Shown: piece by piece, positions 1 through 14,337 of the stretch
How positions within the stretch are numbered: position 1 is the first letter of the stretch
Layout: every line of letters starts with the position of its first letter
Source of the DNA: a virus
Virus genome (UHGV): UHGV-0078064
Direction: 5' to 3' (one strand)
Length of the DNA stretch: 14,337 nt
Program-made: the position numbers and the translations under genes
The notes under the pieces: model-generated
The model's database searches: none
What the model saw: only the letters and a program-made list of their open reading frames with translations
Told to the model about the DNA's origin: nothing

Positions 1-68
1 TACGCAGTGTGCGCCGGGTCGCTGTTACCGAGCGGCTGGTTATGTGTGAAAACTTCAGTAATTGCCAT
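1..68 (-). CDS. D: Head decoration protein gpD, N-terminal 22 codons only (gene runs off the window start)
   Basis: Reverse complement of 1-68 translates [22 protein letters not shown], matching the lambda gpD N-terminus ([22 protein letters not shown]) as I recall it. AAGAGG Shine-Dalgarno lies 6 nt upstream and overlaps the C stop. Confidence 0.75.
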   Translation of the reverse strand, partial: [22 protein letters not shown]

Positions 69-77
69 GATAGCCTC

Positions 78-683
78 TTAAACGGGGGTGTTTAACAAAT
101 CGTCAGCGGCATCAGAAGATGCGCTACCTGCTGGGAGTGCACCGGGTGCTGTTTCCATCAAACGATCCAGCGCCGTATCGGTACGCGCCTGGGCACTTTG
201 CGGTGCAGCAGCCAGAATGCGCTGTGCGCTCTCTACCGTCATACCCGGCGTTTCGGCCAGTGCTCGTGCCTGTGACTCACGCCCTTTAGCCTCATCGCAG
301 TTCAGGATGCCCATGATGCGGCTATTCTCTGCAGCTACTGCTGCAGTAACCTGCGCACTGACATCTACAGGGGCCGCTACGGAAGCAATGGTCGTGTCAA
401 CGGTAGTGACCTGTTCAGCTGAGGCAGTTGTCTGAGTTGCTGCCTGGTCAACTGGCTTAGTGGTCACAGCTGAAGCAGAAGGTGATGGCATAGTTCCTCC
501 AAGGGTTGTTTTTTTGCGTCTGTCGAGTGCTTCGCGCATCACGCCGAGCGCATCGGTATTGTTAACAAGTTCATCCGCCAGTCCGTTATCCAAAGACTCC
601 TGGCCGGAGAATACTGCCGCTTCGGTGTCCAGCACGTCCTGAACAGACATGCCGGTATAAGCGGAAACCTTTTCGGCAAACAT
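78..683 (-). CDS. nu3: Scaffolding protein Nu3, nested in-frame within the 3' third of C
   Basis: Internal ATG at 681-683 (MFAEKVSAYTGM...) gives a 606-nt in-frame ORF sharing the C stop. Lambda Nu3 is 606 nt and starts at the equivalent MFAQKV position (established knowledge). No strong SD is visible. Confidence 0.6.
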   Translation of the reverse strand: MFAEKVSAYTGMSVQDVLDTEAAVFSGQESLDNGLADELVNNTDALGVMREALDRRKKTTLGGTMPSPSASAVTTKPVDQAATQTTASAEQVTTVDTTIASVAAPVDVSAQVTAAVAAENSRIMGILNCDEAKGRESQARALAETPGMTVESAQRILAAAPQSAQARTDTALDRLMETAPGALPAGSASSDAADDLLNTPV

Positions 684-1421
684 CTGACGAGTGGCATCGA
701 TACGCGTCTGGAAATCAGCACGCACATCTTTCGGAAGCTTTTCGTAAGGGTTGCCGTCGACCTTGCGATCGCCGCTGTAAATCAGCGTGACCTCAACGCC
801 GTTAGTTTTGAGCGCAGCGCCATAGTTGCTGTGCGCCATCATGACCCCAATGGAGCCGGTTCTGGCCGTTTGTGTGACCAGCCGTCGCGATGCCGAACTG
901 GCTATAAGCTGCCCTGCACTGCAGTTCATGTCATTGGCCAGCGCCCAGATGGGTTTGATATCGCGCATACGGGCTATAATGTCGGCGCAGTCAAACGCCC
1001 CGGACACCATTCCACCCGGCGTATCCATATCCAGAAGAATGCCGTCAACGCCGGGGTCACTGATTGCCTGCTGCAGGCGAGCAATGATCCCGTTGTAACC
1101 CGTCATGCCGGAATAAGGCTGAAGCGCACGGGTTTTACTGACCAGCGTGCCGGAAACCGGCAAGACCGCGATACCATTTGCCACCTGATAGCTGCGTGAT
1201 GGACGGGGATCCATGTCATCATCCTCACCAAACAGCGCCAGCGGTTCGGCTATTTGTCCGGCATCAAGCGTGATGCCAGAGACGGTATCTGTCAGCCGGG
1301 TGATGCCCAACTGGCCAGCCAGCGCGCAAAAGAAAACCCGCGCATAGGCGGGTTCAAGCATCAGCGGCTCATTAAAGGCCATACTGGCAATATGCGGAAG
1401 ATTACGCAGCTCGTGCGCCAT
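78..1421 (-). CDS. C: Head maturation protease / minor capsid protein C (S49-family peptidase)
   Basis: 447-aa ORF, near-identical along its length to lambda gpC as recalled ([40 protein letters not shown]...DLLNTPV). Overlaps B by 20 nt exactly as in lambda. Confidence 0.93.
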   Translation of the reverse strand: MAHELRNLPHIASMAFNEPLMLEPAYARVFFCALAGQLGITRLTDTVSGITLDAGQIAEPLALFGEDDDMDPRPSRSYQVANGIAVLPVSGTLVSKTRALQPYSGMTGYNGIIARLQQAISDPGVDGILLDMDTPGGMVSGAFDCADIIARMRDIKPIWALANDMNCSAGQLIASSASRRLVTQTARTGSIGVMMAHSNYGAALKTNGVEVTLIYSGDRKVDGNPYEKLPKDVRADFQTRIDATRQMFAEKVSAYTGMSVQDVLDTEAAVFSGQESLDNGLADELVNNTDALGVMREALDRRKKTTLGGTMPSPSASAVTTKPVDQAATQTTASAEQVTTVDTTIASVAAPVDVSAQVTAAVAAENSRIMGILNCDEAKGRESQARALAETPGMTVESAQRILAAAPQSAQARTDTALDRLMETAPGALPAGSASSDAADDLLNTPV

Positions 1422-2994
1422 CTTGCTCCTCCTCGTTTGATTTTTTCACTCCGGCCTCAAAAGCTGCAGCGGCCCATGCCGGTGGTTTCAGACCCGCAGC
1501 ACGACGCTCTATGGTTTCCCGGACCTGCTGGGCAAAAATCTCCTGATAATCATCACCGCGTTTGGCGCACTCTTTTTCATACGTGCTGAGACCTGCCTCA
1601 ATGAGCATGACGGCCTCCTGTACCTCTTTCAGCCCGTCAATTGCCATTCGACCAGAGCCAATCCAGTTGGCATTCCCCCAGGCTGTTCTCGCCTCCTGGA
1701 AACTGAACCGGGCTTTCGAAGGAAGCGTGACCACGCGGCGGACAATCGCCTCTTCAAGCCAGCAAAGAAACATCTGACAGGCCTGTCGGGATGCCACAAA
1801 CTTGCGACGCCCCATAAAGTACGCCCAGGACTCGTTAGCACTTGCGCGTGCGGTCGAGTAGCTCATCTGCGAATAGTTTCGCGAAAGCTGCTCATACGAC
1901 ACACCAAGCCCAGCGGCAATATAACGCAGCAGGGACTGTTCAAAAGTCGAGTAGCCGTTATCGGTATCCTGCGCCGACTGAAGGTTGAGAGAATCACCCG
2001 GCAACAGGTGTGGAACCCTTGCCCCACCCAGGCGAACAGGCGCAGCTGAGTAATAGGACGCCATTTCACCGAGCCAGCCCGTAAGTTTGCTCTGCTGCTC
2101 TTTATTATCCGCGCCGAGAATAAAGTCCATCGCCGATTGGGTATCCAGTTCACTCTCGATGGTAGCGGCATACATAGCCTTCACTATCGCGCTCTGGAGC
2201 TGGGTATTTTGCAGGGTATCGAGCATTTTCATCTGCTCCATCACGCTGTAAAACGCATTGGCCCCACGGGTCTGTCCATCCTCCATCGGTTCGAATACAT
2301 GGATAAATGAAGGTCGACCGCCGGGTAGTTCGCGAGGAATGTAGGTCCAGTTCTGCGCCATCCAGCCGGGATAACCATCGTCGCTGACGTAATATCCCAG
2401 CGCAGCACCGCTATCATTTATTTTCACACCGGCGCGACAGTTCCGGGTATCACCGATATTATTCGGATTGCTGACGCGCTTCGGACTGACCATTTTGAAC
2501 TGAGTACGGAAAAGACGCGTTGAATCGCTGTCCCAGGTCGCCTGCGTGCATAATTCACCGTTAAACGCGTGCATGGCCACACCTTCTCGGATCATCATCG
2601 TAAACGTTCGCTTACGCTCGGCATCAATCCCGCAAAAGTCGTCCTCGGCATACTCATTCCATGCAGCTTCCACATCCCGCGAGAATGCCCGTGAATCCTC
2701 CTCATTTATTCCCAGATAACGCCAGCTTGGTCGATAACTGAGTCTGAAAAATGACCCGACGATGTGGTCCTGGTGGAGCTGCACGGCGTTTGCCGCGTAG
2801 CCATTATTTCGCACCAGATCGTCAGCGCGGGCATTTCCGCGAGAATAGTTGGGTAGGAGTGCGGCATCTGCACTTTCACTCGGCGGATTCCAGCCTCGCA
2901 GCTGCCCACCAAACCCGCCTCCACCGCCATGATATCCTGCGTATTCCCGAAGGGATGTTTTCCCGTCAGGTCCCACCAAAGATGGTATTTTCAT
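1402..2994 (-). CDS. B: Portal protein B
   Basis: 530-aa ORF near-identical to lambda gpB as recalled ([25 protein letters not shown]...). Start overlaps the W stop by 4 nt. Confidence 0.93.
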
Positions 2995-3197
2995 ACGTAA
3001 AACCCTGCTGGCCCCCGGCGTCGTGATGTGGTGCCAACCTGAGATTCAAGGTCAGCAATATATTTTTTGAGATCGCTGACTGAAGTGGCTGTAAATTCCA
3101 CTCTTCGACCGTCTTTCTGTACCGTCGCCACGCGCTTTCCCATCATCAGGTCATGTAACGCAGCGCGCGCGGCATCCAGTTCAGTCTGTGTTGCCAT
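2991..3197 (-). CDS. W: Head-tail joining / head completion protein W
   Basis: 68 aa ([51 protein letters not shown]...[10 protein letters not shown]), matching lambda gpW as recalled. Sits between A and B as in lambda. Confidence 0.9.
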
Positions 3198-5119
3198 TAT
3201 TCATCTCCAGATAATGCCCGCGCGTAATCCGCCAGGGTCTTGTTATTGTTACGGCTGCCTTCTTCCTCCAGCAGGCTGGCCAGAAGTGAATCAAGATTTA
3301 GCTGCCAGCGGGATATGCTTATACGCAGCGCCGCCAGTGCATAAACAAAGCAATCGAGCGCCTCATTTCGTCGTTTTTTGCTGTCCCAGACGATCTTTTT
3401 CTTTCCGTCTACCCATTTTTCCACCTGCTCTTCAGCTGTTAGTTGTTGGGCCTCTGTTAGATCGTAGATTTCTGGGTTATTCGGGAAATGAACCGCTCCC
3501 GCCAGCGGCTCGTCTCTTTGCGCCACCAGCGTGAAACGGTTATAAATCTGCTCTTTTGCGGTGTCTGTTCCTACCTCTGTGAGGTAAACACCATTCTTGT
3601 TACGCTTGCGTGGCATGTTCGCCACTGGCTTTCCATAAACCGACGCCCCCTTTATAGGGATCACACGAAACAGACCGTGTTTTTTTGAGCGGTTGTAGAC
3701 GATGGTGGGATCAATGCCGCCAATATCCCAGCAAGTGCGGGATATAACCATTTCGAGACCGTTCTGGCGCTTATACGTCCTGTTGATCGCTTCATCAACT
3801 CGAGCGAGAGTCGACTCATCATCATGACGACCCATAATGATAATTTTGTCGATAAGCCAGCTTTCCTCTCCCGGCCCCCATCCCCAAACACGCATTTCGT
3901 AACGGTCAAGCTGGGAGTCAATACCCGCTGTCAGATATGCCACTCGCTCCGGCACAGACGCTTCAAAGTGCTCTTTTCGTTCCGCTAAAACTTCAGCATC
4001 GGGTCGTTCACCTATTTTCGGTTCCCACGTTTCGCCCAGGGTCGTGTTAACGAAAGTTTTTCGCTTACCCGTATCACCTTTTGTTTTTATCCAGTCCTTG
4101 ACGATCTGCACCCAGGTTGTGAACGGGCTATATGCGGTCCAGATGTGGAATGTAACGCTGTCAGGAGGTTCAATTTCGGTACCGGATGAAGAAAACCAGT
4201 TAAGGCCGTCTCGTGTCCAGATACCTGTTTCATCACAAATATACCTGGCCTCCAGAAATTCCAGCTCCTGTTGTTTAATCACACAGGCATTGTGTTCACA
4301 GAGGTAGTAAACGCTGGCAGGTTCTCCCGGAGACCATTTGAAGCCAAATGGTGTCTCTTTATCACCGAATTTCAGATACTGCTCTTCCCCACAGTGTGGG
4401 CATGGAACATGGAACCGAAGAAAATGTTCAGACTCCTTAGCAGCTCTTTCTATCTGGCACGTACCTTTGACTTTCGGTGTAGATCCGCGAATGGATTTCG
4501 GCCATACAGAACCCTCAATACGCTTATCACCCAGAAAGGTGGGAGAACCTTCTTTCTCGATGTCATCATCGAAAGCGGCGAGCTCGTCGTAGCCAGCCAC
4601 ATCAACTGATTTTTCACGGTAGTTTTTTGCAGCCTTACCGCCCAGGCACCAGAAACCACGACCATTCGAGAAACGCTTCATGCTCAGCGTATTGTCCCGG
4701 TGTTTTTTACCGTACCAGGGAGCAAGCGCCAGCAACGTCGGAATATCACGAATGGTCGGTTCTACATGAGACTTCATGAAGTTTTCAGCATCACCGTCGG
4801 TTGGTAACCATATTAGGGAGTTACGCTGTTTATGTTGGATGAAATATGCGTAAACGCCGAGCAACATTTTTGAGTAGCCGACACGAGCCGATTTAACGAC
4901 ATTCACCTCGCGAATATAGTCATTACCCATCGCATTCATAATTGCACGCTGAAATGGCAGTGTTTCCCAGCGCCCTTCCTGGTAGGCAGACTCTTTCGGG
5001 AGATAATAATTCTCATCTGCCCATTCAACTGCTGTTTGCGGTTGCGGCCGGTACAGCGAACGTAACCCCGCCCGCGCAGAGTGCTGCAGCCCCTTAACCT
5101 GACTGTTCGATATATTCAC
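3197..5119 (-). CDS. A: Terminase large subunit A
   Basis: 640-aa ORF near-identical to lambda gpA as recalled (lambda is 641 aa). Its start lies 26 nt inside the 3' end of Nu1, as in lambda. Confidence 0.95.
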
Positions 5120-5639
5120 TCAGCAACCCCGGTATCATTTCATCCAGCGCAGCTGCCTTGTTCATGGCCTTAATGATGTCCTTCTTGAGGAAATCAATAT
5201 GTCGGTTCTCCAGCTCCGGGAAGCGCCGCTGAACCGACAGAGGTATTCCATCGAGAATGCTGGCGATTTCTCCGGCTACCCGCGACAGCACGAACGTGCA
5301 GAATGCGGTCTCCACCACTTCAGCGGACTCTTTTGCATTTTTTAATTCCTGAGCGTCAGCCTGAGCTCGCGTAAGTCGGTGTCGCTCATATTCAATCGTG
5401 CCAGGTTGAAGATCGGACTCAGAAGCGATACGGAGATCTTCAACTTCCTTCCGCAACTTTTCATTTTCTATAGCTGCATCGCGCGCACTGTACCATTCGA
5501 TTGCAGCAGCAGATTCAAAGAGAACCTCATTACCTTTGCCACCACCGCGGACAACCGGCATACCTTGCTCCTGCCAGTTCTGAATCGTTCGGACGCTTAC
5601 CCCGAAAATTTCGGATAAGCGTTTTTTGTTAACCTCCAT
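5094..5639 (-). CDS. nu1: Terminase small subunit Nu1
   Basis: 181 aa, MEVNKK...IQNWQEQGMPV...GGGKGNEV... through ...[10 protein letters not shown], near-identical to lambda gpNu1 as recalled. Immediately downstream of the cosB R sites. Confidence 0.95.
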   Translation of the reverse strand: MEVNKKRLSEIFGVSVRTIQNWQEQGMPVVRGGGKGNEVLFESAAAIEWYSARDAAIENEKLRKEVEDLRIASESDLQPGTIEYERHRLTRAQADAQELKNAKESAEVVETAFCTFVLSRVAGEIASILDGIPLSVQRRFPELENRHIDFLKKDIIKAMNKAAALDEMIPGLLSEYIEQSG

Positions 5640-5835
5640 GGCTTACTCCTGGCAAAAAACAGAGAAAGGAAACAATCAACGGTAAACTTCCGTTTTCCTT
5701 GCTCAGCATTTCCTTTCTGGAGAGAGGACGTTTTTAACAAAAACAATGAGTAAACAAGAAGAAGAACGGAAATGGCATAAACCAGAAAATTTTCATAAAT
5801 AGCGAGAATCTGCGCGGACGCCGCCCCGTAACAAG
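5640..5835. other. cos: cos site: cosB (R1, I1, R2, R3 terminase-binding repeats) and cosN nicking region
   Basis: Reverse complement reads ...GTTACG GGGCGGCGTCCG CGCAGATTCTCGCTATTTATGAAAATTTTCTGGTTTATGCCATTTCCGTTCTTC...GTTTCCTTTCTC...ATG(Nu1), matching the lambda cos layout. R-like elements: gagaaaggaaac (about 5662-5673), tttcctttct in opposite orientation (about 5709-5718), gaagaacggaaatgg (about 5761-5775). Predicted 12-nt cohesive end is GGGCGGCGTCCG (+ strand about 5815-5826); lambda has GGGCGGCGACCT. Confidence 0.85.
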
Positions 5836-7331: not shown

Positions 7332-7373
7332 ATATCCATTATCAAGCCCACCAGCAGGTGAGCTTTGGAATGG

Positions 7374-7631
7374 TTACTTCGCTTTTGCTTCCGCTCGCTT
7401 ACGCCGGCGCTCTTCTTTCCTCTCGGCTTTTGCCATGTCCATGAATGCCTGCATGATCGAGTTCCGCATCATGTAGCTGACAAAGTGATGGTTGACACAG
7501 CCGTTGAGGCGCAGCTGCTCGCCAAACTCATCCACCGAGGCCAATGCTTCCATCATGCCCTTCTCGCCTTTCATGAACTCTGAGAAGTCGCGCCCCGCTC
7601 TGGAGGCGCATTCTATTATTCGGGTGCTCAT
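7374..7631 (-). CDS. Hypothetical small protein with a lysine/arginine-rich C-terminal tail, coupled to the upstream KilA-N gene
   Basis: 85 aa from the ATG at 7629-7631 (MSTRIIECASRAGRDFSEFMKGEKGMMEALASVDEFGEQL...AKAERKEERRRKRAEAKAK). Its start is 2 nt after the KilA-N gene stop (TGAtcATG). The ORF track's 105-aa version overlaps the upstream gene. Confidence 0.55.
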   Translation of the reverse strand: MSTRIIECASRAGRDFSEFMKGEKGMMEALASVDEFGEQLRLNGCVNHHFVSYMMRNSIMQAFMDMAKAERKEERRRKRAEAKAK

Positions 7632-7633
7632 GA

Positions 7634-8362
7634 TCAGGCCGCCGCATAGAGCAATTTCATCTGCCCTTTCACCGGGAATGCCGACATGCAACGCGCTTCG
7701 AAATCACGATAATCAGAGCACCCATTGGCAATGCTGGTAACGGCAATGATCTGTCGCTCAACCAATGTCAGCGCGTCAGGTTTAAGGTGCTGATGGATTT
7801 TGTCTCCCGCAGCCAGCCGTCTTTTAACCTCTGCATATACTTCTGGTGGTAATACCGGGCCATATACCCACTTGGCACTGATCATCCCAAATAGTGCGGG
7901 GCGACGACCTGGTCGATGACGGGGCAGCCCTGACATTTTGAACATCGCAGAATAAAACGGATCGCTAAACCTCTTTTCCCATGGCTGAGATTTATCCAGA
8001 AGGAAAATAGCCTTTATTCTTTCATCGTCGATATGATGAACGGAACCCTGAATGATTGCGTCAATTTGCTCATCACACCAGATCTCAAAATCTACAGAAA
8101 GCCATCGAGCAAATCTGACCGCCAGTTTTGGGTGAAGCCATGTTCCGCCGCCACGGTCTTTGCGAGCGCGGCTGGTTTTTACATATGTGATATTCCCATA
8201 TCTACTCTTTAACGCCTCGATGTAACGGACAGTCTCAGGAAGCCTAAGCCACTGAGCCGGCTCCTTGTTGAACTTGTCAGCTGCCGCAGTCGCGTCAAAC
8301 CAGCCATCGTCAGAAAAACGCATGGGATGGCCTTCGAAATCAATCGGGATGATATTGGACAT
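7634..8362 (-). CDS. KilA-N domain protein (N-terminal KilA-N/APSES-type DNA-binding domain; C-terminal half unassigned)
   Basis: 243 aa from the ATG at 8360-8362 (MSNIIPIDFEGHPMRFSDDGWFDATAAADKFNKEPAQWLRLPETVRYIEAL...GGGTWLHPKLAVRFARWLSVDFEIW), a pattern typical of KilA-N domains. AAGG SD about 9 nt upstream. The ORF track's 267-aa version begins at a GTG with no SD. Confidence 0.7.
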   Translation of the reverse strand: MSNIIPIDFEGHPMRFSDDGWFDATAAADKFNKEPAQWLRLPETVRYIEALKSRYGNITYVKTSRARKDRGGGTWLHPKLAVRFARWLSVDFEIWCDEQIDAIIQGSVHHIDDERIKAIFLLDKSQPWEKRFSDPFYSAMFKMSGLPRHRPGRRPALFGMISAKWVYGPVLPPEVYAEVKRRLAAGDKIHQHLKPDALTLVERQIIAVTSIANGCSDYRDFEARCMSAFPVKGQMKLLYAAA

Positions 8363-8512
8363 CGTATTTACCTTTTTGGTGATATGAGCCAGTTCTCGCA
8401 GACATGGACAGCCCAAGAGCGGCACGATGTAAGCCACCGTCCTGTCTCTGTCTCATATCCCGAAAAGCTCTTGGTTGATATGCGCACGAGAATGCGCGTT
8501 TACTGCGGACAT

Positions 8513-8535
8513 AAAAAAGCCCCGCATCGCGAGGC
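8513..8535 (-). terminator. Candidate rho-independent terminator downstream of Rz
   Basis: Minus-strand RNA: GCCUCGC-GAU-GCGGGGC (7-bp stem with one G.U pair) followed by UUUUUU. Lies about 35 nt past the Rz stop. Confidence 0.6.
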
Positions 8536-8568
8536 TCATTAAATGGACTTTGTGATTTGCAAAAAAAA

Positions 8569-9006
8569 TTATTTCAGGCACTGAGTCCTGATGTACTCCT
8601 GCAGGTAGTTAACCTGCGCGGTTATCCTGTCGATTCCACTTCGGAGACGGTAATAATTGAGTTCAGCATCTGCTGTAAGTCTTGGGCTTTCTCCATCGCC
8701 CATGCCGCTGGCTCCGGTCGTTGACTTTGCACAGGTGGCGGCGACTTGCAGGCGCTTACGCCCAGCAGAAACATCAGCACGGAGACTTTCGATAGTCGCG
8801 TTAGCATCAGCAAGCTCCTTTGTATATCTGGCATCGAGTTCTGCTACATCACGTTGACGCTTCTGCATGTCAGCAATAGTGGATGCGGCTTTGTCGCGCT
8901 GTTCTTTGTAGGCGATTGCATTATCACGGTAATGATTAACAGCCCATGACAGGCAGACGATGATGCAGATAACCAGAGCGGAGATAATCGCGGTGACTCT
9001 GCTCAT
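8569..9006 (-). CDS. Rz: Spanin, inner-membrane subunit (i-spanin) Rz
   Basis: 145 aa; the N-terminus [31 protein letters not shown] matches lambda Rz as recalled. Start overlaps the R stop (ATGA). Confidence 0.92.
8622..8807 (-). CDS. Rz1: Spanin, outer-membrane lipoprotein subunit (o-spanin) Rz1, embedded in the +1 frame of Rz
   Basis: 61 aa from the ATG at 8805-8807: [20 protein letters not shown] (signal peptide with VSAC lipobox) followed by a proline-rich segment [13 protein letters not shown]. Entirely embedded in Rz, the lambda architecture. Confidence 0.8.
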
Positions 9007-9479
9007 ACCTCAATCTCTCTGACCGTTCCGCCTGCCTCTTTGAATTTTGCAATCAGGCTGTCAGCCTTATGCTCGAACTGACCATAACCAGCGCCCGGCA
9101 GTGAGGCCCAGATATTGCTGCAACGGTCGATTGCCTGACGAATATCACCGCGGTCAATCATCGGTAAAGCGCCACGCTCTTTAATCTGTTGCAATGCCAC
9201 AGCGTCCTGGCTTTTCGGAGAGAAGTCTTTCAGGCCAAGCTGCTTACGGTAGGCATCCCACCAACGGGAAAGAAGCTGGTAACGTCCGGCGGCTGTTGAT
9301 TTGAGTTTGGGGTTTAGCGTGACAAGTTTGCGAGGGTGATCGGAGTAATCAGTGAATAGCTCTCCGCCTACAATGACGTCATAACCATGATTTCTGGTTT
9401 TCTGACGTCCGTTATCAGTTCCCTCTGACCATGCCAGCATATCGAGGAACGCCTTACGTTGATTATTGATTCCCACCAT
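9003..9479 (-). CDS. R: Endolysin R (lytic transglycosylase)
   Basis: 158 aa, essentially identical to lambda R as recalled ([53 protein letters not shown]...). Overlaps S by 17 nt as in lambda. Confidence 0.95.
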
Positions 9480-9786
9480 CTTCTACTCCGGCTTTTTTAG
9501 CAGCGAAGCGTTTGATAAGCGAACCAATCGAGTCAGTACCGATGTAGCCGATGAACACGCTCGTTATATAAGCGAGATTGCTACTTAGTCCGGCGAAGCC
9601 GAGAAGGTCACGAATGAACCAGGCGATAATGGCGCACATCGTTGCGTCGATTACTGTTTTTGTAAACGCACCGCCATTATATCTGCCGCGAAGGTACGCC
9701 ATTGCAAACGCAAGGATTGCCCCGATGCCTTGTTCCTTTGCCGCGAGAATGGCGGCTAACAGGTCATGTTTTTCTGGCATCTTCAT
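9463..9786 (-). CDS. S: Holin S (class I, with the Met1-Lys2-Met3 dual-start holin/antiholin motif)
   Basis: 107 aa, [62 protein letters not shown]..., near-identical to lambda S107/S105 as recalled. Confidence 0.95.
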
Positions 9787-9904
9787 GTCTTACCCCCAAT
9801 AAGGGGATTTGCTCTATTTAATTAGGAATAAGGTCGATTACTGATAGAACAAATCCAGGCTACTGTGTTTAGTAATCAGATTTGTTCGTGACCGATATGC
9901 ACGG

Positions 9905-9942
9905 GCAAAACGGCAGGAGGTTGTTAGCGCAACCTCATGCCA
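9905..9942 (-). terminator. Stem-loop in the Q-S interval, possibly a second intrinsic terminator or structured leader element
   Basis: Minus-strand RNA: GGCAUGAGGUUG-CGCUAA-CAACCUCCUGCC (12-bp stem, one mismatch) followed by GUUUUGCC. About 120 nt upstream of the S start. From memory the same element occurs upstream of lambda S. Confidence 0.45.
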
Positions 9943-10077
9943 CCCGCTTTCACGAAGCCAGCCATTGCGCTGGTTTTCTTTTATGCAAAGCACACCGCAC
10001 CGTAGCCACAGCGGATAAGGTGATTATTTTTGTCTGTCTGGTATTTGGTTTGATGTGCTTTCAGAAAGGTCGTGATT

Positions 10078-10112
10078 AAAACGCAAAAGCCCCGAGCTAT
10101 TAACTCAGGGCT
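10078..10112 (-). terminator. Promoter-proximal hairpin plus U-tract about 30-60 nt downstream of the pR' start; candidate tR' analogue ending a short 6S-like leader RNA
   Basis: Minus-strand RNA: AGCCCUGAG-UUAAUAG-CUCGGGGCU (9-bp stem with one G.U) followed by UUUGCGUUUU. The + strand version is also followed by a U-rich tail (UUUAUUU), so it may act bidirectionally. Confidence 0.5.
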
Positions 10113-10140
10113 TTATTTAACGAGTGCATTTATCCATCGT

Positions 10141-10176
10141 TGGGTCAAATTTACCCAACTTTATTCAAAAAGTCAA
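10141..10176 (-). promoter_or_regulatory. pR': Late promoter pR' with the overlapping Q-binding/qut region
   Basis: Reverse complement reads TTGACT-(17 nt)-TAAATT followed by TGACCCAACGATGG, matching the lambda pR' -35, -10 and initial transcribed sequence as recalled. Sits immediately downstream of the Q stop. Confidence 0.8.
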
Positions 10177-10218
10177 TATCATGCCGTAAAGATGTTGCCA
10201 TCCGTGGCAATCATGCTG

Positions 10219-10842
10219 CTAACGTGTGACTGCGTTCAAAATGTTGCCTGCGATTGACTCTTCCTTGTGGCATTGCACCACCAGAGCGTCATACAGCGGC
10301 TTAACAGTGCGTGACCAGGTGGGTTGGGTAAGGTTTGGGATTAGCATCGTCACAGCGCGATATGCTGCGCTTGCAGGCATCCTTGAATAACCGACGCCTT
10401 TACATCTTCCGCACTCTTTCTCAACAACTCTCCCCCACTGCTCTGTTTTTGCTATATCAACTGCCCGACCTGTTCCGTGGCAATCTCTGCATCTTGCGCC
10501 CGGCGTCGCAGCACTACGGCAATAATCCGCATAAGCGAATGTTGCGAGCACTTGCAGTACCTTTGCCTTAGTATTTCCTTCGAGCTTTGCCACACCACGG
10601 TATTTCCCCGATACCTTGTGTGCAAATTGCATCAGATAGTTGATAGCCTTTTGTTTGTCGTTCTGGCTGAGTTCATGCTTACCGCAGAATGCAGCCATTC
10701 CGAATCCGGCTTGTGATTGCGCCATCCCCATAGCAGCCATAACATCAGTACCGGAAAGAGAGTCAGAAGCCGTAGCCCGTGGTGAGTCGCTCATCATCGG
10801 GCTTTTTGGCGAATGAAATTTAGCTACGCTTTCGAGTCTCAT
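10219..10842 (-). CDS. Q: Late-gene antiterminator Q
   Basis: 207 aa, essentially identical to lambda Q as recalled (MRLESVAKFHSPKSPMMSDSPRATASDSL...CRDCHGTGRAVD...ECGRCKGVGY...). Start overlaps the ninH stop. Confidence 0.95.
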   Translation of the reverse strand: MRLESVAKFHSPKSPMMSDSPRATASDSLSGTDVMAAMGMAQSQAGFGMAAFCGKHELSQNDKQKAINYLMQFAHKVSGKYRGVAKLEGNTKAKVLQVLATFAYADYCRSAATPGARCRDCHGTGRAVDIAKTEQWGRVVEKECGRCKGVGYSRMPASAAYRAVTMLIPNLTQPTWSRTVKPLYDALVVQCHKEESIAGNILNAVTR

Positions 10843-11027
10843 CGTCTTCCCCTCTTGCCCTGTTTGACCATCAGGACGCCGTTAACTATTACATGACGCT
10901 CGCCTTTGCTGTCTCGGTTGTACTTGAGCACTGTTCCTCTTGCGCAGGAAAGCATCCTCGCCACTTCGGTCTGATTGCCTCGTGTCTGGATAAGAAGCTC
11001 TGGTATCGTTTGAATTGTGGCGTTCAT
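10839..11027 (-). CDS. ninH: NinH-like small protein
   Basis: 62 aa (MNATIQTIPELLIQTRGNQTEVARMLSCARGTVLKYNRDSKGERHVIVNGVLMV...) resembling lambda NinH as recalled (...TIPDMLVEAYGNQTEVARRLKCSRGTVRKY...). Immediately upstream of Q. Confidence 0.75.
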   Translation of the reverse strand: MNATIQTIPELLIQTRGNQTEVARMLSCARGTVLKYNRDSKGERHVIVNGVLMVKQGKRGRR

Positions 11028-11386
11028 ACGCTCTCCAGTTCGGTGATTTTTATTCCAAGCCTTCCGCCTGGTACTTTCACGCCACGAATTACGCGAATGT
11101 CATCGAATTGCTCGTCGTCTTCCGCAAATCCGGCGTGGATAAGAGAGTCGAGTAAACCTTTCAGGATGTTATCGAGGTCGCGGCGGCGGGAGTCTGGAAC
11201 GTCTGCGATGACTTTGATGCGGAGTCGTGATTTGGTGAAAATGTCTAACTTGAGTTGGCGGATTATTTGCTGTACATCTTTTCGGTATTTCTGGCCTTTA
11301 TCGCTGATGTAGTATTGGCTTCCCCTTCTTCGCCAGTAGGTATTCAGTGACGGTGGGTACGGAAGCACAAACTGATATTCGTTCAT
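11024..11386 (-). CDS. rusA: Holliday junction resolvase RusA
   Basis: 120 aa with family-typical motifs (LPxPPSxNxYxR, PDxRRRDLDN, GGRL). Occupies the slot held by NinG/Rap in lambda. Confidence 0.85.
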   Translation of the reverse strand: MNEYQFVLPYPPSLNTYWRRRGSQYYISDKGQKYRKDVQQIIRQLKLDIFTKSRLRIKVIADVPDSRRRDLDNILKGLLDSLIHAGFAEDDEQFDDIRVIRGVKVPGGRLGIKITELESV

Positions 11387-11673
11387 GACTTAATCTTCCC
11401 CTCCCTCAGCAGTATCGCCTGCGTTCTGATCACGCCTTCGAGGTGGTAAAGTCTGGCGTCTTTGTTGTCGAGATTATGGGTGCGTCGGTCGATTTCATCG
11501 TGACACGCACTACAAGCCCATGCGCCGATCAGGTCGTCAGGCTTCATTCCCGTTCCGCAAATTCCAGCCATCCGGTAATGTGCCAGAACTGTAGTTTCAG
11601 GGTTGCCATTGCATACGCCGTAAATACGTACCTGGCATTCTCTGCCGCGTGCTTCTTTGCGTAGGTTAGCCAT
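11383..11673 (-). CDS. ybcO: YbcO-family (DUF1364) cysteine-rich protein, putative nuclease
   Basis: 96 aa with conserved Cys/His pattern (C..C, H, CSACH). Lies immediately upstream of rusA, the same order as ybcO-rusA in the DLP12 prophage (from memory). Confidence 0.65.
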   Translation of the reverse strand: MANLRKEARGRECQVRIYGVCNGNPETTVLAHYRMAGICGTGMKPDDLIGAWACSACHDEIDRRTHNLDNKDARLYHLEGVIRTQAILLREGKIKS

Positions 11674-12395
11674 TAAGCAGCCTCCCCGGTTACTTTCAGC
11701 ATTCCGTTATCGAGCAGCTTTCTGGTCAGCCACTGTTGACCACGCCCGGTGATTTTTGTGGTGAACGATATCTGTATTCCGTGATTTGTGTTGACCGCTG
11801 TTTCTTTCACTGTGAAATAGCCGCGATCCATATATTCCTGCATTGGCACATTTCGCCGGGAACCTGAAGCAATAAGGATTTTGTGATCGCGCATCCACGC
11901 AAACAGTTTGTTTGGACCAATTCCAACAACCTTTGCAAAGTTTCCAATCAAAATTCCACTGGCCTCGCCAACGCGATCGGCAAACTCAACTTTAGGTGCG
12001 GCAATTGCGAGCTGGTTTTCCAGCTGCATTTTCTGCTCAGCAAGGTCAGCAGCAAGGCGCAACGCTTCCGGTAGCGTTTTGGGGATATTAACCGCAGCTT
12101 CTTCAAGCTCTCGCCAGCGGTCAACAAGACGAGCGGTGAACTCTGGCGACAACTGGGCAACAACGACAATACTGTCTCGCTTACCTTGTTCGCCCTCGAA
12201 GACGTAATGCTCGTACTGAACATTGAACCCTAAGTTATTGATTCTTTCGGAAACCTCAATTTGAGGAAGCCGGATAACACCATTTTTAGCCAGCGTTTCG
12301 ATGGTACGTTTCACATTGTCATGACGCTTACCCACCAACTCAGCGATTTCAATGCTTGTCATTTTGATGGCATTGCCATTTATTAACTCACTCAT
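11673..12395 (-). CDS. Rha-family N-terminal plus ANT/KilA-C C-terminal domain protein (Roi-like antirepressor-type DNA-binding protein)
   Basis: 240 aa. N-terminus ELINGNAIKMTSIEIAELVGKRHDNVKRTIE resembles the phage Rha regulatory domain; the C-terminal segment ...ADRVGEASGILIGNFAKVVGIGPNKLFAWMRDHKILIASGSRRNVPMQEYMDRGYF resembles the antirepressor (ANT) C-terminal domain. Assignment from memory of domain signatures. Confidence 0.55.
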   Translation of the reverse strand: MSELINGNAIKMTSIEIAELVGKRHDNVKRTIETLAKNGVIRLPQIEVSERINNLGFNVQYEHYVFEGEQGKRDSIVVVAQLSPEFTARLVDRWRELEEAAVNIPKTLPEALRLAADLAEQKMQLENQLAIAAPKVEFADRVGEASGILIGNFAKVVGIGPNKLFAWMRDHKILIASGSRRNVPMQEYMDRGYFTVKETAVNTNHGIQISFTTKITGRGQQWLTRKLLDNGMLKVTGEAA

Positions 12396-12564
12396 CGTCT
12401 TCTTCCTCGTACATTGAGCTATTCGGATCGCTCATCAGTTCTGCACAGCAGTGCTCACACACGTGAACTTCCAGCACATGCAGCTTCTGACCGCAGTTAG
12501 CGCACGTTAAAGCCCGCTCGACGCTTTCTTTCTGGTATTGAAGGGATTGGGATGGGCTAAGCAT
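12388..12564 (-). CDS. ninF: NinF-like small cysteine-rich protein (not in the ORF track because under 60 aa)
   Basis: Hand translation of the reverse complement of 12388-12564 gives 58 aa: MLSPSQSLQYQKESVERALTCANCGQKLHVLEVHVCEHCCAELMSDPNSSMYEEEDDE. CxxC...CxxCC suggests a zinc ribbon. Its stop overlaps the downstream start (GTGA/ATG). Resembles lambda NinF as recalled. Confidence 0.7.
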   Translation of the reverse strand: MLSPSQSLQYQKESVERALTCANCGQKLHVLEVHVCEHCCAELMSDPNSSMYEEEDDE

Positions 12565-12940
12565 TATTGGCGTCCTGCATCATGAGAAAGACAATCATGG
12601 CGGCACGGAGTGGATTGTCATATGCGACACCAACATTCGGTCCGGCATCATCAAACAAGTCCCTTGCGTTGTCTGTAGCGCACGGCATTGAGGGATTGTC
12701 TAAAATTATGCTGATGTTGTTTTCAGTGATAATCGGCCATGCGTCTGCTGGGTTTGCGCATGGGTTAAAGGATCCGCGCTCAACCTCTACTTCAACTGCG
12801 TCTCCGTTTACAATGTCTCCCTCAAATGAGATAAACACCATCGCGCCATTCTCACCTTCTTTGTAATCCGGTGATCCGTTATGAATGGCTTCGAATACCG
12901 CCACGTTAATTTCAAAATCACTTAACTGTGAATAATCCAT
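12557..12940 (-). CDS. Acidic hypothetical protein, NinX-like by position (between ninE and ninF, as in P22)
   Basis: 127 aa from the ATG at 12938-12940 (MDYSQLSDFEINVAVFEAIHNGSPDYKEGENGAMVFISFEGD...), with GAGGAA SD about 5 nt upstream. The NinX call is by synteny only. Confidence 0.5.
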   Translation of the reverse strand: MDYSQLSDFEINVAVFEAIHNGSPDYKEGENGAMVFISFEGDIVNGDAVEVEVERGSFNPCANPADAWPIITENNISIILDNPSMPCATDNARDLFDDAGPNVGVAYDNPLRAAMIVFLMMQDANNA

Positions 12941-12942
12941 TG

Positions 12943-13119
12943 TCACTTCCTCGCACGATGTCTTAGCCACCGGATATCCCACAGGTGAGCCGTGTAGTTG
13001 AAGGTTTTTACGTCAGATTCTTTTGGGATTGGCTTGCGTTTATTTCTGGAGCGTTTCGTTGGAAGGTATTTGCAGTTTTCGCAGATGATGTCGGTGATAC
13101 TTCGTCGCTGTCGCCTCAT
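12943..13119 (-). CDS. ninE: NinE
   Basis: 58 aa from the ATG at 13117-13119: [58 protein letters not shown], matching lambda NinE as recalled. Start overlaps the ninB stop. Confidence 0.85.
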
Positions 13120-13526
13120 TCGTACCTCCTGTCGGTAAATCTGACACCCTGACCAATAGCCCACGCTGTTGTGTACTCAATCAGACTTGCCATACGCTTC
13201 ACACTCATCTGCGCGCTACTTTCGCGAATGTTGACGTATTCGCCTTCAAGCCCGGGCAAAACATCAGCTTCCTGTTTTGTTGCCACTGCATGACCGCTGA
13301 TCAACAAAACCTTCCATTGTTCCGGTTTTAACCATTTGCCGCACCATTGAACCTGACGTGCGATATCCGCCAGCATCGCGTGAAATTTTGCGTTCTGGTC
13401 AAGGTTGCGCTTGTAGTCAGTAATGCGGATGGTAACTGGCTTGTCTTTATCGAGTGGTGTTGCGAGGATGGCATTTATTGCAGCTTGCTGTTGTTGCTTA
13501 CTCCTGAGGAAAATTGTCTGTTTCAT
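13116..13526 (-). CDS. ninB: NinB-family protein (recombination-associated, ssDNA-binding)
   Basis: 136 aa. The motif [33 protein letters not shown] parallels lambda NinB (RSLDQNRKLWACLGDVSRQVEWHGRWLDAESWK) as recalled. GAGGAA SD present. Confidence 0.7.
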
Positions 13527-13534
13527 GGAATTCC

Positions 13535-13747
13535 TCAGTATGCGTAAAGGCTGTATCCGTTTTTATTTGGCCTGGTGCCATAGCCATATAGGCTCCAGCC
13601 ATCCTGTTTTCTCTCACCAAAAATATGCTTGCGGTATTCTTCCTGCTGGCGTCTCCATATTTCCATCATGTCTGGCTGGTTCTTTTCTCGCATTTTTCGG
13701 ATCTGCTCAAGGATGAACTCTATTTGCTGCTGATTTGTCATACTCAC
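13535..13747 (-). CDS. Hypothetical small protein (GTG start)
   Basis: 70-aa ORF (MSMTNQQQIEFILEQIRKMREKNQPDMMEIW...). The GTG start overlaps the upstream stop (GTGA); an alternative ATG lies 2 codons in. No family recognised. Confidence 0.45.
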   Translation of the reverse strand: MSMTNQQQIEFILEQIRKMREKNQPDMMEIWRRQQEEYRKHIFGERKQDGWSLYGYGTRPNKNGYSLYAY

Positions 13748-14052
13748 TCCTTCACTTTGATTCCAGCGGCGCGGATAGCCTCTACATCGCTTTCGTATTG
13801 CGATTCTGCACCTGAGTCATAGCCAATGTGATAATCACCGGGAAGTGGGCCTTTCTTTGGCTTTTGCAGCTCAATCTCGATAGCTGCTCGCGATGCCTGC
13901 CATAAAGTCCACCACTCATTTAAGGAGTGACGAATATCAATGCTTGAAAATGCGAAGTACCTATCACCATTTCTTGCCTCGGTTATCATCTCTAATGGTA
14001 ATTTCAATTTTTTGGCAACGTATTCCTCAAACTTCTTTCTTGATTCGTCCAT
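13744..14052 (-). CDS. Hypothetical protein
   Basis: 102-aa ORF (MDESRKKFEEYVAKKLKLPLEMITEARNGDRYFAFSSIDIRHSLNEWW...), ATG start with GAGGGT SD. No family recognised. Confidence 0.55.
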   Translation of the reverse strand: MDESRKKFEEYVAKKLKLPLEMITEARNGDRYFAFSSIDIRHSLNEWWTLWQASRAAIEIELQKPKKGPLPGDYHIGYDSGAESQYESDVEAIRAAGIKVKE

Positions 14053-14069
14053 CGATACTTACCCTCAGT

Positions 14070-14276
14070 TCAACTCACAAAACGCCACGCTATTTTTGCT
14101 ACAGCGACAGGCATAACACCGATAATCACCCACAGGAAAATGCTACCGAAAAGCACACCCACCAGGTCTTTACCTTCGCCTACCAACCGGACAAAACAGC
14201 CAGCAACCACAATGAACGTCGCCACCATCCACAGAGCACCGAGAAGCCTCAATGCAGAGAAAATCAACTCAACCAC
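14070..14276 (-). CDS. Small hydrophobic protein, probably membrane-associated (GTG start)
   Basis: 68 aa (MVELIFSALRLLGALWMVATFIVVAGCFVRLVGEGKDLVGVLFGSIFLWVIIGVMPVAVAKIAWRFVS). Two long hydrophobic stretches suggest two transmembrane helices. GTG start with GGGGGAGAG SD 6 nt upstream. Confidence 0.5.
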   Translation of the reverse strand: MVELIFSALRLLGALWMVATFIVVAGCFVRLVGEGKDLVGVLFGSIFLWVIIGVMPVAVAKIAWRFVS

Positions 14277-14290
14277 GATTTACTCTCCCC

Positions 14291-14323
14291 CAAATAAAAA
14301 GGCCTGCGATTACCAGCAGGCCT
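14291..14323 (-). terminator. Rho-independent terminator (minus strand), tR2-like by position at the entry to the nin region
   Basis: Perfect 8-bp stem AGGCCUGC / GCAGGCCU with an 8-nt loop, followed on the minus-strand RNA by UUUUUAUUUG. Lies immediately upstream of the first nin-region gene. Confidence 0.7.
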
Positions 14324-14337
14324 GTTATTAGCTCAGT

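What the first reader, a model, noticed from the sequence alone, without database searches (positions are those of the whole stretch)
9905..10176. pR' is lambda-like but followed by a terminator-like hairpin only about 30-60 nt downstream
The -35/-10 and initial transcribed sequence match lambda pR' as recalled. In lambda the constitutive pR' transcript is the 194-nt 6S RNA ending at tR'. Here a 9-bp hairpin with an interrupted U-tract (10078-10112) sits about 30-60 nt from the predicted start, and a second 12-bp hairpin with a GUUUU tail (9905-9942) lies about 120 nt upstream of S. The Q-to-S interval is also shorter than lambda's (about 430 versus 600-plus bp as I remember). This implies a much shorter leader RNA and possibly two sequential terminators that Q-modified polymerase must bypass, a different regulatory geometry from the textbook case.
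Basis: partly seen in the sequence, partly recalled or inferred. Interest (0 to 1): 0.45.

Follow-up and report, generated by a model that had tools for sequence, protein, structure and literature searches.

The report
P22-type short late-leader terminator (tR')
This prophage has lambda's late-gene switch (Q protein plus promoter pR') joined to the short leader and early terminator already annotated in phage P22 and shared by HK97 and HK022, so it is a common natural variant and not a new regulatory design.

Summary
Q (10219-10842) is 99% identical to lambda Q. pR' (-35 at 10176-10171, -10 at 10153-10148, +1 at 10141) follows it. A strong intrinsic terminator lies at +31 to +64 (stem 10111-10089, tail UUUUGCGUUUU to 10078). 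A second hairpin lies at 9941-9912. The Q-S gap is 432 bp, against 676 bp in lambda.

The early terminator is the same element that GenBank annotates in P22 as "t late or tR'; antiterminated by gene 23 protein". It occurs in 96 phage records (HK97, HK022, HK140, mEp phages, epsilon34) and in 334 of 5426 complete E. coli genomes. Phages with other Q types carry it with compensatory changes at the stem top.

A 161-bp P22/HK97-type segment (10118-9958) replaces lambda 44610-45014. That lambda segment holds the 6S RNA body, tR' and the sRNA LPR2.

The second hairpin is not new, because lambda has it almost unchanged. Its GUUUU "tail" is the internal loop of a longer, covarying stem-loop. P22 keeps the pairing but has UGAUCU there, so it is probably not a dedicated terminator.

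Verdict: already known, low interest.

The parts
10219..10842 (-). Q antiterminator gene (207 aa)
   Evidence: 205/207 identical to lambda Q and 201/207 to P22 gp23.
10148..10176 (-). Late promoter pR'. The -35 TTGACT is at 10176-10171 and the -10 TAAATT at 10153-10148. The 17-bp spacer carries the Q-binding element.
   Evidence: Found by the scan. Aligns with lambda pR' and P22 P-late. The spacer is identical to P22's and differs from lambda at -28 and -18. HK140, mEp and P22 records annotate the homologous site as pR'/qut.
10119..10141 (-). Start site (+1 = 10141) and initial transcribed region shared with lambda. It includes the -10-like AACGAT at +1 to +6, which induces the sigma-dependent pause in lambda.
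   Evidence: Homology with lambda 44587-44609. The role of AACGAT is taken from established lambda work and was not tested here.
10078..10114 (-). tR', the intrinsic terminator of the P22/HK97 type. AAA flank, stem 10111-10104/10096-10089, tail UUUUGCGUUUU.
   Evidence: The homologue is annotated 't late or tR'' in P22, X78401 and Emek. Three stem-top variants all keep the pairing.
9958..10118 (-). 161-bp segment not shared with lambda. It replaces lambda 44610-45014 (405 bp).
   Evidence: Alignments. 92-99% identical in HK97, HK022, HK140, mEp phages, Gally and Sf101, and about 74% in P22 and epsilon34.
9901..9947 (-). Extended stem-loop ('hairpin 2'). Outer helix 9947-9942/9906-9901, inner helix 9941-9931/9922-9912, 3'-side internal loop GUUUU at 9911-9907.
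   Evidence: Folds. Shared with lambda. Covariation: the outer helix is 100% paired with 2 pairs changed on both sides; overall 90.3% of cells are paired against 28-52% when the partners are slid.
9836..9887 (-). Third leader helix (GAACAAAUC/GAUUUGUUC plus AGUAAUC/GAUUACU), shared with lambda.
   Evidence: identical in lambda.
9463..9786 (-). Holin gene S, the first late gene. It is preceded by the CCCC/GGGGG stem at 9807-9793, the sdi structure in lambda.
   Evidence: The sdi name comes from lambda literature and was not tested here.

Best explanation
The window carries a lambda/P22-type (type 1) Q late-gene switch in its P22/HK97/HK022 allelic form.

pR' fires constitutively. RNA polymerase pauses at about +16/+17 on the -10-like AACGAT, where Q, bound to its site between the -35 and -10 hexamers, can load.

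Without Q, transcription stops at tR' (hairpin +31 to +53, U-rich tail to +64) and releases an RNA of about 60 nt. With Q, the modified polymerase ignores tR' and runs through about 290 nt of structured leader into S, R, Rz and the head genes.

The arrangement arose by mosaic exchange. It is lambda-like up to +23, then a 161-bp P22/HK97-type cassette, then lambda-like again from 9957 through S.

The second hairpin belongs to the leader that lambda also has. It is most likely a structured RNA element, such as a processing or stability site, and at most a weak back-up terminator.

Shown here: sequence, homology, folds, covariation, distribution and existing annotation. Inferred: termination, pausing and Q action, by homology to lambda and P22.
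For: - Q is 99% identical to lambda Q and 97% to P22 gp23.
- The promoter/qut region is 57/58 identical to P22 and 51/58 to lambda.
- Lambda Q and P22 gp23 are reported to substitute for one another (PMC8022706).
- The terminator hairpin core folds at -15.2 kcal/mol, and the whole short RNA has z = -4.45.
- It is homologous to the element annotated as tR' in P22 NC_002371 at 37917-37945, with the RNA 5' end annotated at 37887.
- ES18, ST104/MG40 and Salmonella phage SF6 have larger Q genes of about 255 aa (765-774 bp) and different upstream sequence. They keep the same stem base and U tract, but the stem top changes from A-U,G-C to C-G,A-U or to G-U,C-G,A-U.
- The element is found in 96 phage records and in 334 of 5426 E. 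coli genomes.
- PMC7547250 states that short antitermination-regulated RNAs are made from the late promoters of 21, phi80, 82 and P22.
Against: - There is no transcript data for this window or its close relatives in what I could read. The P22 evidence is GenBank annotation plus a 1976 book chapter that I know only through a citation.
- The window's proximal U run is 4 U, where most relatives have 5. This could lower termination efficiency.
- HK620's annotators labelled the same hairpin 'putative qut' and placed tQ about 600 bp downstream.
Confidence: 0.85

Rival explanations
1. Two sequential intrinsic terminators. Hairpin 2 (9941-9912 plus GUUUU) is a second dedicated terminator that Q-modified polymerase must also bypass.
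For: The inner hairpin is stable at -16.3 kcal/mol (-18.7 in lambda) and is followed by GUUUUG. The annotators of phage MG40 marked the homologous site as a predicted terminator. From memory only, tandem terminators downstream of lambda tR' were described by Luk and Szybalski in 1983. I could not retrieve that paper.
Against: There are only four U, and a G precedes them. P22, ES18, As3 and Salmonella SF6 keep the helix, with compensatory changes, but have UGAUCU or UGAUUU in place of GUUUU. The 'tail' is enclosed by an outer helix that is paired in 11 of 11 sequences and covaries. The element is also not special to this window, since lambda has it.
Confidence: 0.15
2. The roughly 60-nt pR' transcript is not only a by-product. 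It is a trans-acting small RNA of the lysogen, like StxS of Shiga-toxin phages. This is compatible with the best explanation.
For: The RNA would be made constitutively. It would have a 3' terminator hairpin with a U-rich tail, preceded by the A/U-rich UUAAAUAAA. There are precedents: StxS is made from pR'-tR' (PMC7547250), and lambda 6S RNA and LPR2 are Hfq-bound (bioRxiv 10.1101/2024.10.31.621285). Positions +1 to +30 are nearly invariant across the P22-type set.
Against: The conservation of +1 to +30 is already explained by its role in pausing and Q loading. The U tract is interrupted, which makes a poor Hfq 3' tail. There is no Rfam match and no expression or binding data.
Confidence: 0.15
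3. Hairpin 1 is an RNA part of the Q-utilisation site rather than a terminator, as the HK620 annotation implies.
For: HK620's record labels the region covering the hairpin 'qut; putative Q-utilization site'.
Against: Phages with a different Q gene size and different promoter-proximal sequence keep the same hairpin base and U tract. It has the full anatomy of an intrinsic terminator. Lambda qut is DNA in the promoter and early transcribed region, and lambda lacks this hairpin altogether, yet lambda Q and P22 gp23 are reported to substitute for one another (PMC8022706).
Confidence: 0.03

Closest known systems
Phage P22 late control region (gene 23, P-late/pR', t-late/tR'); the same allele in HK97, HK022, HK140, mEp phages and epsilon34
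   Same: Same Q family (97%). The promoter/qut region is 57/58 identical. The same terminator stem sits at the same distance from +1. The downstream leader is homologous, and the interval length is 432 bp against 434 bp.
   Different: The loop sequence differs (UUAAUAG against UUUAACCG). The proximal U run has one U fewer. There is a T-to-C change at -2. The middle of the leader is only about 74% identical to P22, though 92-99% identical to the HK97/HK022/HK140 group.
Phage lambda pR'-6S RNA-tR' (textbook case)
   Same: Q is 99% identical. pR', qut and +1 to +23 are shared. The last roughly 170 nt of leader before S are shared, including hairpin 2, helix 3 and the stem before the S start.
   Different: Lambda 44610-45014 is replaced by 161 unrelated bp. 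That 405-bp lambda segment holds the 6S body, tR' at +194 and the LPR2 sRNA region. The terminated RNA would be about 60 nt rather than 194 nt.
Phage 21 / Sf6 late region and the StxS-producing pR'-tR' of Stx phages
   Same: The logic is the same: a constitutive late promoter, a nearby terminator and a short RNA. In Sf6 the annotated terminator also lies within about 55 nt of the promoter. StxS shows that such RNAs can acquire a function (PMC7547250).
   Different: The Q families, promoters and RNA sequences are unrelated. In Sf6, tRNA genes follow the terminator, and the window has none.

Membership tests
Lambda/P22-type (type 1) Q antitermination module | Q protein of the lambda family encoded immediately upstream | tested here: met
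   205/207 identical to lambda Q and 201/207 to P22 gp23.
Lambda/P22-type (type 1) Q antitermination module | pR' with the Q-binding element between -35 and -10, and the -10-like AACGAT at +1 to +6 | tested here: met
   Alignments. The spacer is identical to P22 and has two differences from lambda. AACGAT is intact.
Lambda/P22-type (type 1) Q antitermination module | Intrinsic terminator between the pause site and the first late gene | tested here: met
Lambda/P22-type (type 1) Q antitermination module | Termination without Q and read-through with Q | not testable with these tools
   This needs in vitro transcription or RNA mapping.
P22/HK97-type short tR' leader | Hairpin GCCCUGAG...CUCGGGGC at about +31 to +53 with a U-rich tail, homologous to the annotated P22 tR' | tested here: met
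Lambda 6S RNA / tR' at +194 | Homology to the 6S body and tR' (lambda 44610-44780) | tested here: not met
   The segment is absent from the alignment. The LPR2 probe sequence from the same lambda-only block is also absent from the window.
Intrinsic terminator (hairpin 2) | Stable G/C-rich stem directly followed by a U tract that is conserved among homologues | tested here: not met
   The stem is present, but the tail is G plus 4 U. In P22-type homologues the tail is replaced by UGAUCU/UGAUUU while the pairing is kept. The tail lies inside a covarying outer helix.
RNase III processing site (hairpin 2) | Cleavage dependent on rnc within a duplex of about two helical turns | not testable with these tools
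   The only support is structural: 6 + 11 bp with an asymmetric internal loop. The title of Daniels et al. 1988 says RNase III sites exist in lambda late RNA, but I could not check where they are.
Hfq-dependent prophage sRNA (StxS-like) | Stable short RNA bound by Hfq with trans targets | not testable with these tools
   No expression or binding data are available, and there is no Rfam match.

The most novel reading that the evidence does not exclude
The roughly 60-nt RNA ending at this tR' is made constitutively from a prophage allele present in about 6% of complete E. coli genomes and in many Salmonella phages. It could be a functional regulatory RNA of the lysogen. On this reading it would be the P22/HK97-type counterpart of StxS and of lambda's Hfq-bound 6S and LPR2 RNAs, both of which this allele lacks. 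A related possibility is that the conserved stem base plus U tract of the terminator acts as a recombination joint, letting different Q/promoter modules be swapped onto the same leader.
Probability: 0.15. Interest if true: 0.45.

Novelty: already known. Interest (0 to 1): 0.15.

Why it matters
It matters little for discovery. The element is a common, already annotated allele of the lambdoid late switch.

Three points are useful. First, lambda's 194-nt 6S arrangement is only one of several leader cassettes. The full lambda cassette appears in 24 phage records, against 87-96 for the short P22 type, and the two are about equally frequent in E. coli genomes (416 against 334 of 5426).

Second, the short allele lacks the lambda regions now reported to give Hfq-bound RNAs (6S and LPR2). 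Any function of those RNAs is therefore dispensable for phages with this allele, or is replaced in them.

Third, annotators should not call the small ORFs in this interval genes.

Tried and rejected
- **Rfam.** Gathering thresholds on the whole window and permissive E-values on the interval gave only sub-threshold, terminator-like noise.
- **Lambda LPR2 as hairpin 2.** I suspected hairpin 2 might be the 3' end of the roughly 63-nt lambda sRNA LPR2. This was rejected. The published LPR2 probe maps to lambda 44816-44850, inside the lambda-only block, and is absent from the window.
- **phi80 lead.** A 99.5% match in a 'DH5alpha' assembly suggested a phi80 connection. The locus is an ordinary lambdoid prophage with a lambda-type Q, and nothing there points to phi80, so I did not pursue it.
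- **Terminator alignment.** The MAFFT alignment of the terminator variants misplaced the stem tops. I therefore read the pairing from separate folds of each variant.
- **Coding potential.** For the 51-aa ORF 9838-9993(-) and the 65-aa ORF 9882-10079(+) there were no Pfam hits. The start codon is not conserved, and 1-nt indels relative to P22 break the frame.
- **Papers not retrieved.** Luk and Szybalski 1983, Daniels et al. 1988, Roberts 1975, Guo et al. 1991, Vander Byl and Kropinski 2000, and Casjens and Hendrix 2015 could not be obtained.
- **tRNA genes.** None were found in the window or in lambda's interval.

Full report
**Orientation and anatomy.** The late genes lie on the minus strand: Q is 10219..10842, S is 9463..9786 and R is 9003..9479. 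Read in the direction of transcription, the 432-bp Q-S interval runs as follows.
- The -35 TTGACT is at 10176-10171. A 17-bp spacer follows, then the -10 TAAATT at 10153-10148.
- The start, AACGATGG, has +1 at 10141 by homology with lambda 44587.
- At +31 to +53 lies the stem GCCCUGAG/CUCGGGGC (10111-10104 and 10096-10089). It is flanked by AAA on the 5' side and followed by UUUUGCGUUUU, ending at 10078.
- The 67-nt RNA from +1 folds at -23.3 kcal/mol, with z = -4.45 and 0 of 200 shuffles folding as well.
- This is the only terminator-like site on the transcribed strand between 9400 and 10900 and the strongest inverted repeat in the interval.
- The second hairpin is 9941-9931/9922-9912 with GUUUU at 9911-9907.

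The promoter match on its own is not above chance (1 found, 2.0 expected). The identification rests on homology.

**Comparison with lambda.** Q is 205/207 identical to lambda Q. The alignment shows near-identity from the end of Q through pR' to +23, with seven differences between -35 and +23. Unrelated sequence follows. Near-identity resumes at CTTCGTGAAAGCGGG (window 9957, lambda 45015) and runs through S. The window-specific block is 10118-9958 (161 bp). It replaces lambda 44610-45014 (405 bp), which accounts exactly for the 244-bp length difference. The lambda-only block holds most of the 6S RNA, tR' at +194, and the region probed as the Hfq-bound roughly 63-nt sRNA LPR2 (bioRxiv 10.1101/2024.10.31.621285; the probe maps to lambda 44816-44850). 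That probe sequence is absent from the window.

**What the replacement is.**
- The whole interval is 95-98% identical to phages Gally, HK140, HK544, HK106, mEp234, Sf101, mEpX1/X2, HK022 and mEp213.
- The 161-bp core matches 96 phage records, 87 of them over at least 80% of its length. These include HK97, HK022, and P22 and epsilon34 at about 74%.
- In P22 (NC_002371) the homologous hairpin at 37917-37945 is annotated 'terminator: t late or tR'; antiterminated by gene 23 protein action'. The late RNA 5' nucleotide is annotated at 37887, which puts the hairpin at +31 to +59. The older record X78401 calls it 'terminator tR'; terminator tQ'. Emek annotates it as a rho-independent terminator.
- The window's promoter/qut region from -35 to +23 differs from P22 at a single position, -2.
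- P22 gp23 is 97% identical to the window's Q. Lambda Q and P22 gp23 are reported to substitute for one another (PMC8022706).
- Sy et al. [quoted passage not shown]

The 'different geometry' is therefore the known P22-type geometry.

**Evidence that hairpin 1 is a real, selected terminator.** ES18, ST104/MG40 and Salmonella phage SF6 have larger Q genes (765-774 bp) and unrelated promoter-proximal sequence. They nevertheless carry the same stem base (GCCCUG/CGGGGC) and the same U-rich tail. The top of the stem differs with compensation. It is A-U,G-C in the lambda-Q group, C-G,A-U in ES18 and ST104, and G-U,C-G,A-U in SF6. All variants fold as uninterrupted stems of -13.6 to -15.2 kcal/mol. 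HK620 shares the window's sequence up to the end of the hairpin and its U5 run, then diverges into a 1021-bp interval. The terminator thus sits at mosaic junctions and is retained whatever lies on either side. Sf6 (phage 21-type Q) also has an annotated tR' within about 55 nt of its promoter, followed by two tRNA genes.

**Frequencies.**
- In complete E. coli genomes, the short allele is found in 334 of 5426 and lambda's 6S segment in 416 of 5426. Many of the latter are laboratory lysogens and DE3 strains.
- Among phage records, the full lambda block appears in 24, mostly lambda itself and derivatives. The short type appears in 87-96.

**Hairpin 2.**
- It lies in the part shared with lambda, which has GGCAGGAGGUC...AACCUCCUGCC GUUUUG at 45031-45066. 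It cannot be a difference from the textbook case.
- The minimum-energy folds place the inner helix inside an outer helix, GCGGGU/GCCCGU (9947-9942/9906-9901). This makes GUUUU a 3'-side internal loop.
- Across 11 distinct versions (lambda, window, HK140, E7476, Emek, Sf6, P22, ES18, Salmonella SF6, ST104 and HK620), the outer helix is paired in every sequence. Two of its pairs change on both sides (C-G to U-A; G-C to G-U to A-U).
- Overall, 90.3% of cells are paired, against 28-52% when the partners are slid. No shuffle out of 500 reaches the observed covariation score. The sample is small and the sequences are related, so this is supportive rather than decisive.
- P22, ES18, As3 and SF6 keep the structure but have UGAUCU or UGAUUU instead of GUUUU. 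I therefore read it as a conserved structured element of the late leader, and at best a weak terminator.
- One candidate role is RNase III processing. Daniels et al. 1988 report RNase III sites in lambda late RNA in vivo, but I know this from the title only. I could not check the mapped positions, so this remains an inference.

**Mechanism.** The steps are inferred from lambda and P22 knowledge and were not tested here.
1. pR' is constitutive.
2. Sigma-70 re-binds the -10-like AACGAT and pauses the polymerase at about +16/+17.
3. Q, bound between -35 and -10, loads there.
4. Unmodified polymerase terminates at about +58 to +64.
5. Q-modified polymerase reads through tR' and everything downstream.

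Q loads before the terminator hairpin (from +31) is transcribed, so a terminator this close to the start is compatible with Q action, as the P22 arrangement implies.

**Other strands and ORFs.**
- The ORFs in the interval are 51 aa on the minus strand (annotated as hypothetical in HK140 and ECP1) and 65 and 61 aa on the plus strand.
- The 51-aa and 65-aa ORFs, the two tested, have no Pfam match.
- The 51-aa ORF's start codon is not conserved.
- Single-nucleotide indels relative to P22 interrupt the frame of the 51-aa and 65-aa ORFs.
- I treat them as non-coding.
- No sigma-70-like promoter other than pR' was found on either strand between 9400 and 10900.

**Verdict.** The element is already known at the level of database annotation and classical literature. 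Interest is low.

Noticed in passing
window 9954-9977 (+ strand): A hairpin CCAGC...GCTGG is followed on the plus strand by TTTTCTTTT, so it looks like an intrinsic terminator facing against late transcription. The stem and the A/U run are conserved, with variable loops, in P22, ES18, HK620, Salmonella SF6 and HK97. Lambda lacks it. No sigma-70-like promoter that would feed it was found on that strand. On the sense RNA the same stretch reads AAAAGAAAA plus a hairpin, which could also be an A-rich protein-binding site.
   Followed up: partly
window 10139-10159: A perfect 7-bp inverted repeat GTTGGGT/ACCCAAC is centred on the -10 hexamer of pR'. It is created by the two substitutions at -18 (A to G) and -2 (T to C) relative to lambda. 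HK620, Emek and E. coli E7476 have both changes, P22 has only the first, and HK140 has neither. The -2 change also turns the TTGACT just downstream of the -10 hexamer into TTGACC.
   Followed up: partly
window 10085-10088: The proximal U run of tR' is 4 U here and in E. coli E7476. It is 5 U in all other relatives examined. This might make the terminator slightly leakier.
   Followed up: no
window about 10060-10015: A C-rich, G-poor stretch lies directly after tR'. In 60-nt windows starting at +61 and +76, C is 25-27% and G is 8-12%. P22 and ES18 show the same bias although their sequence differs. Lambda, HK620 and Salmonella SF6 do not. This composition is typical of Rho-utilisation sites, so Rho could back up tR' on the untranslated leader.
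   Followed up: partly
L001 1067-1153 (lambda 44866-44952): Part of lambda's own Q-S interval is 82-83% identical over about 87 nt to regions annotated tRNA-Lys or tRNA-OTHER in rV5-like phages. ARAGORN finds no tRNA in lambda's interval. It may be a tRNA relic, since other lambdoid phages carry tRNA genes in this slot.
   Followed up: partly
L005 890-932 (HK620) and L002 1027-1182 (HK140): There are annotation inconsistencies in public records. HK620 labels the tR'-type hairpin 'putative qut' and places tQ about 600 bp downstream. HK140, ECP1, Sf101 and some RefSeq E. coli genomes annotate small 'hypothetical protein' ORFs inside the structured leader.
   Followed up: partly
window 1-5820 and 7337-14337: The window is itself a mosaic. 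The head and terminase genes (1-5639) are 99.9% identical to mEp237, and 1-5820 is 100% identical to Phi06_2987. The lysis, Q and nin side (7337-14337) is about 96% identical to mEpX1 and HK022. No single phage record covers 80% of the window.
   Followed up: no
window 7634-8437 (-): Between Rz and Nu1 lies a 267-aa KilA-N/P63C-domain protein gene, an antirepressor-like cargo. Lambda itself has different genes there.
   Followed up: no
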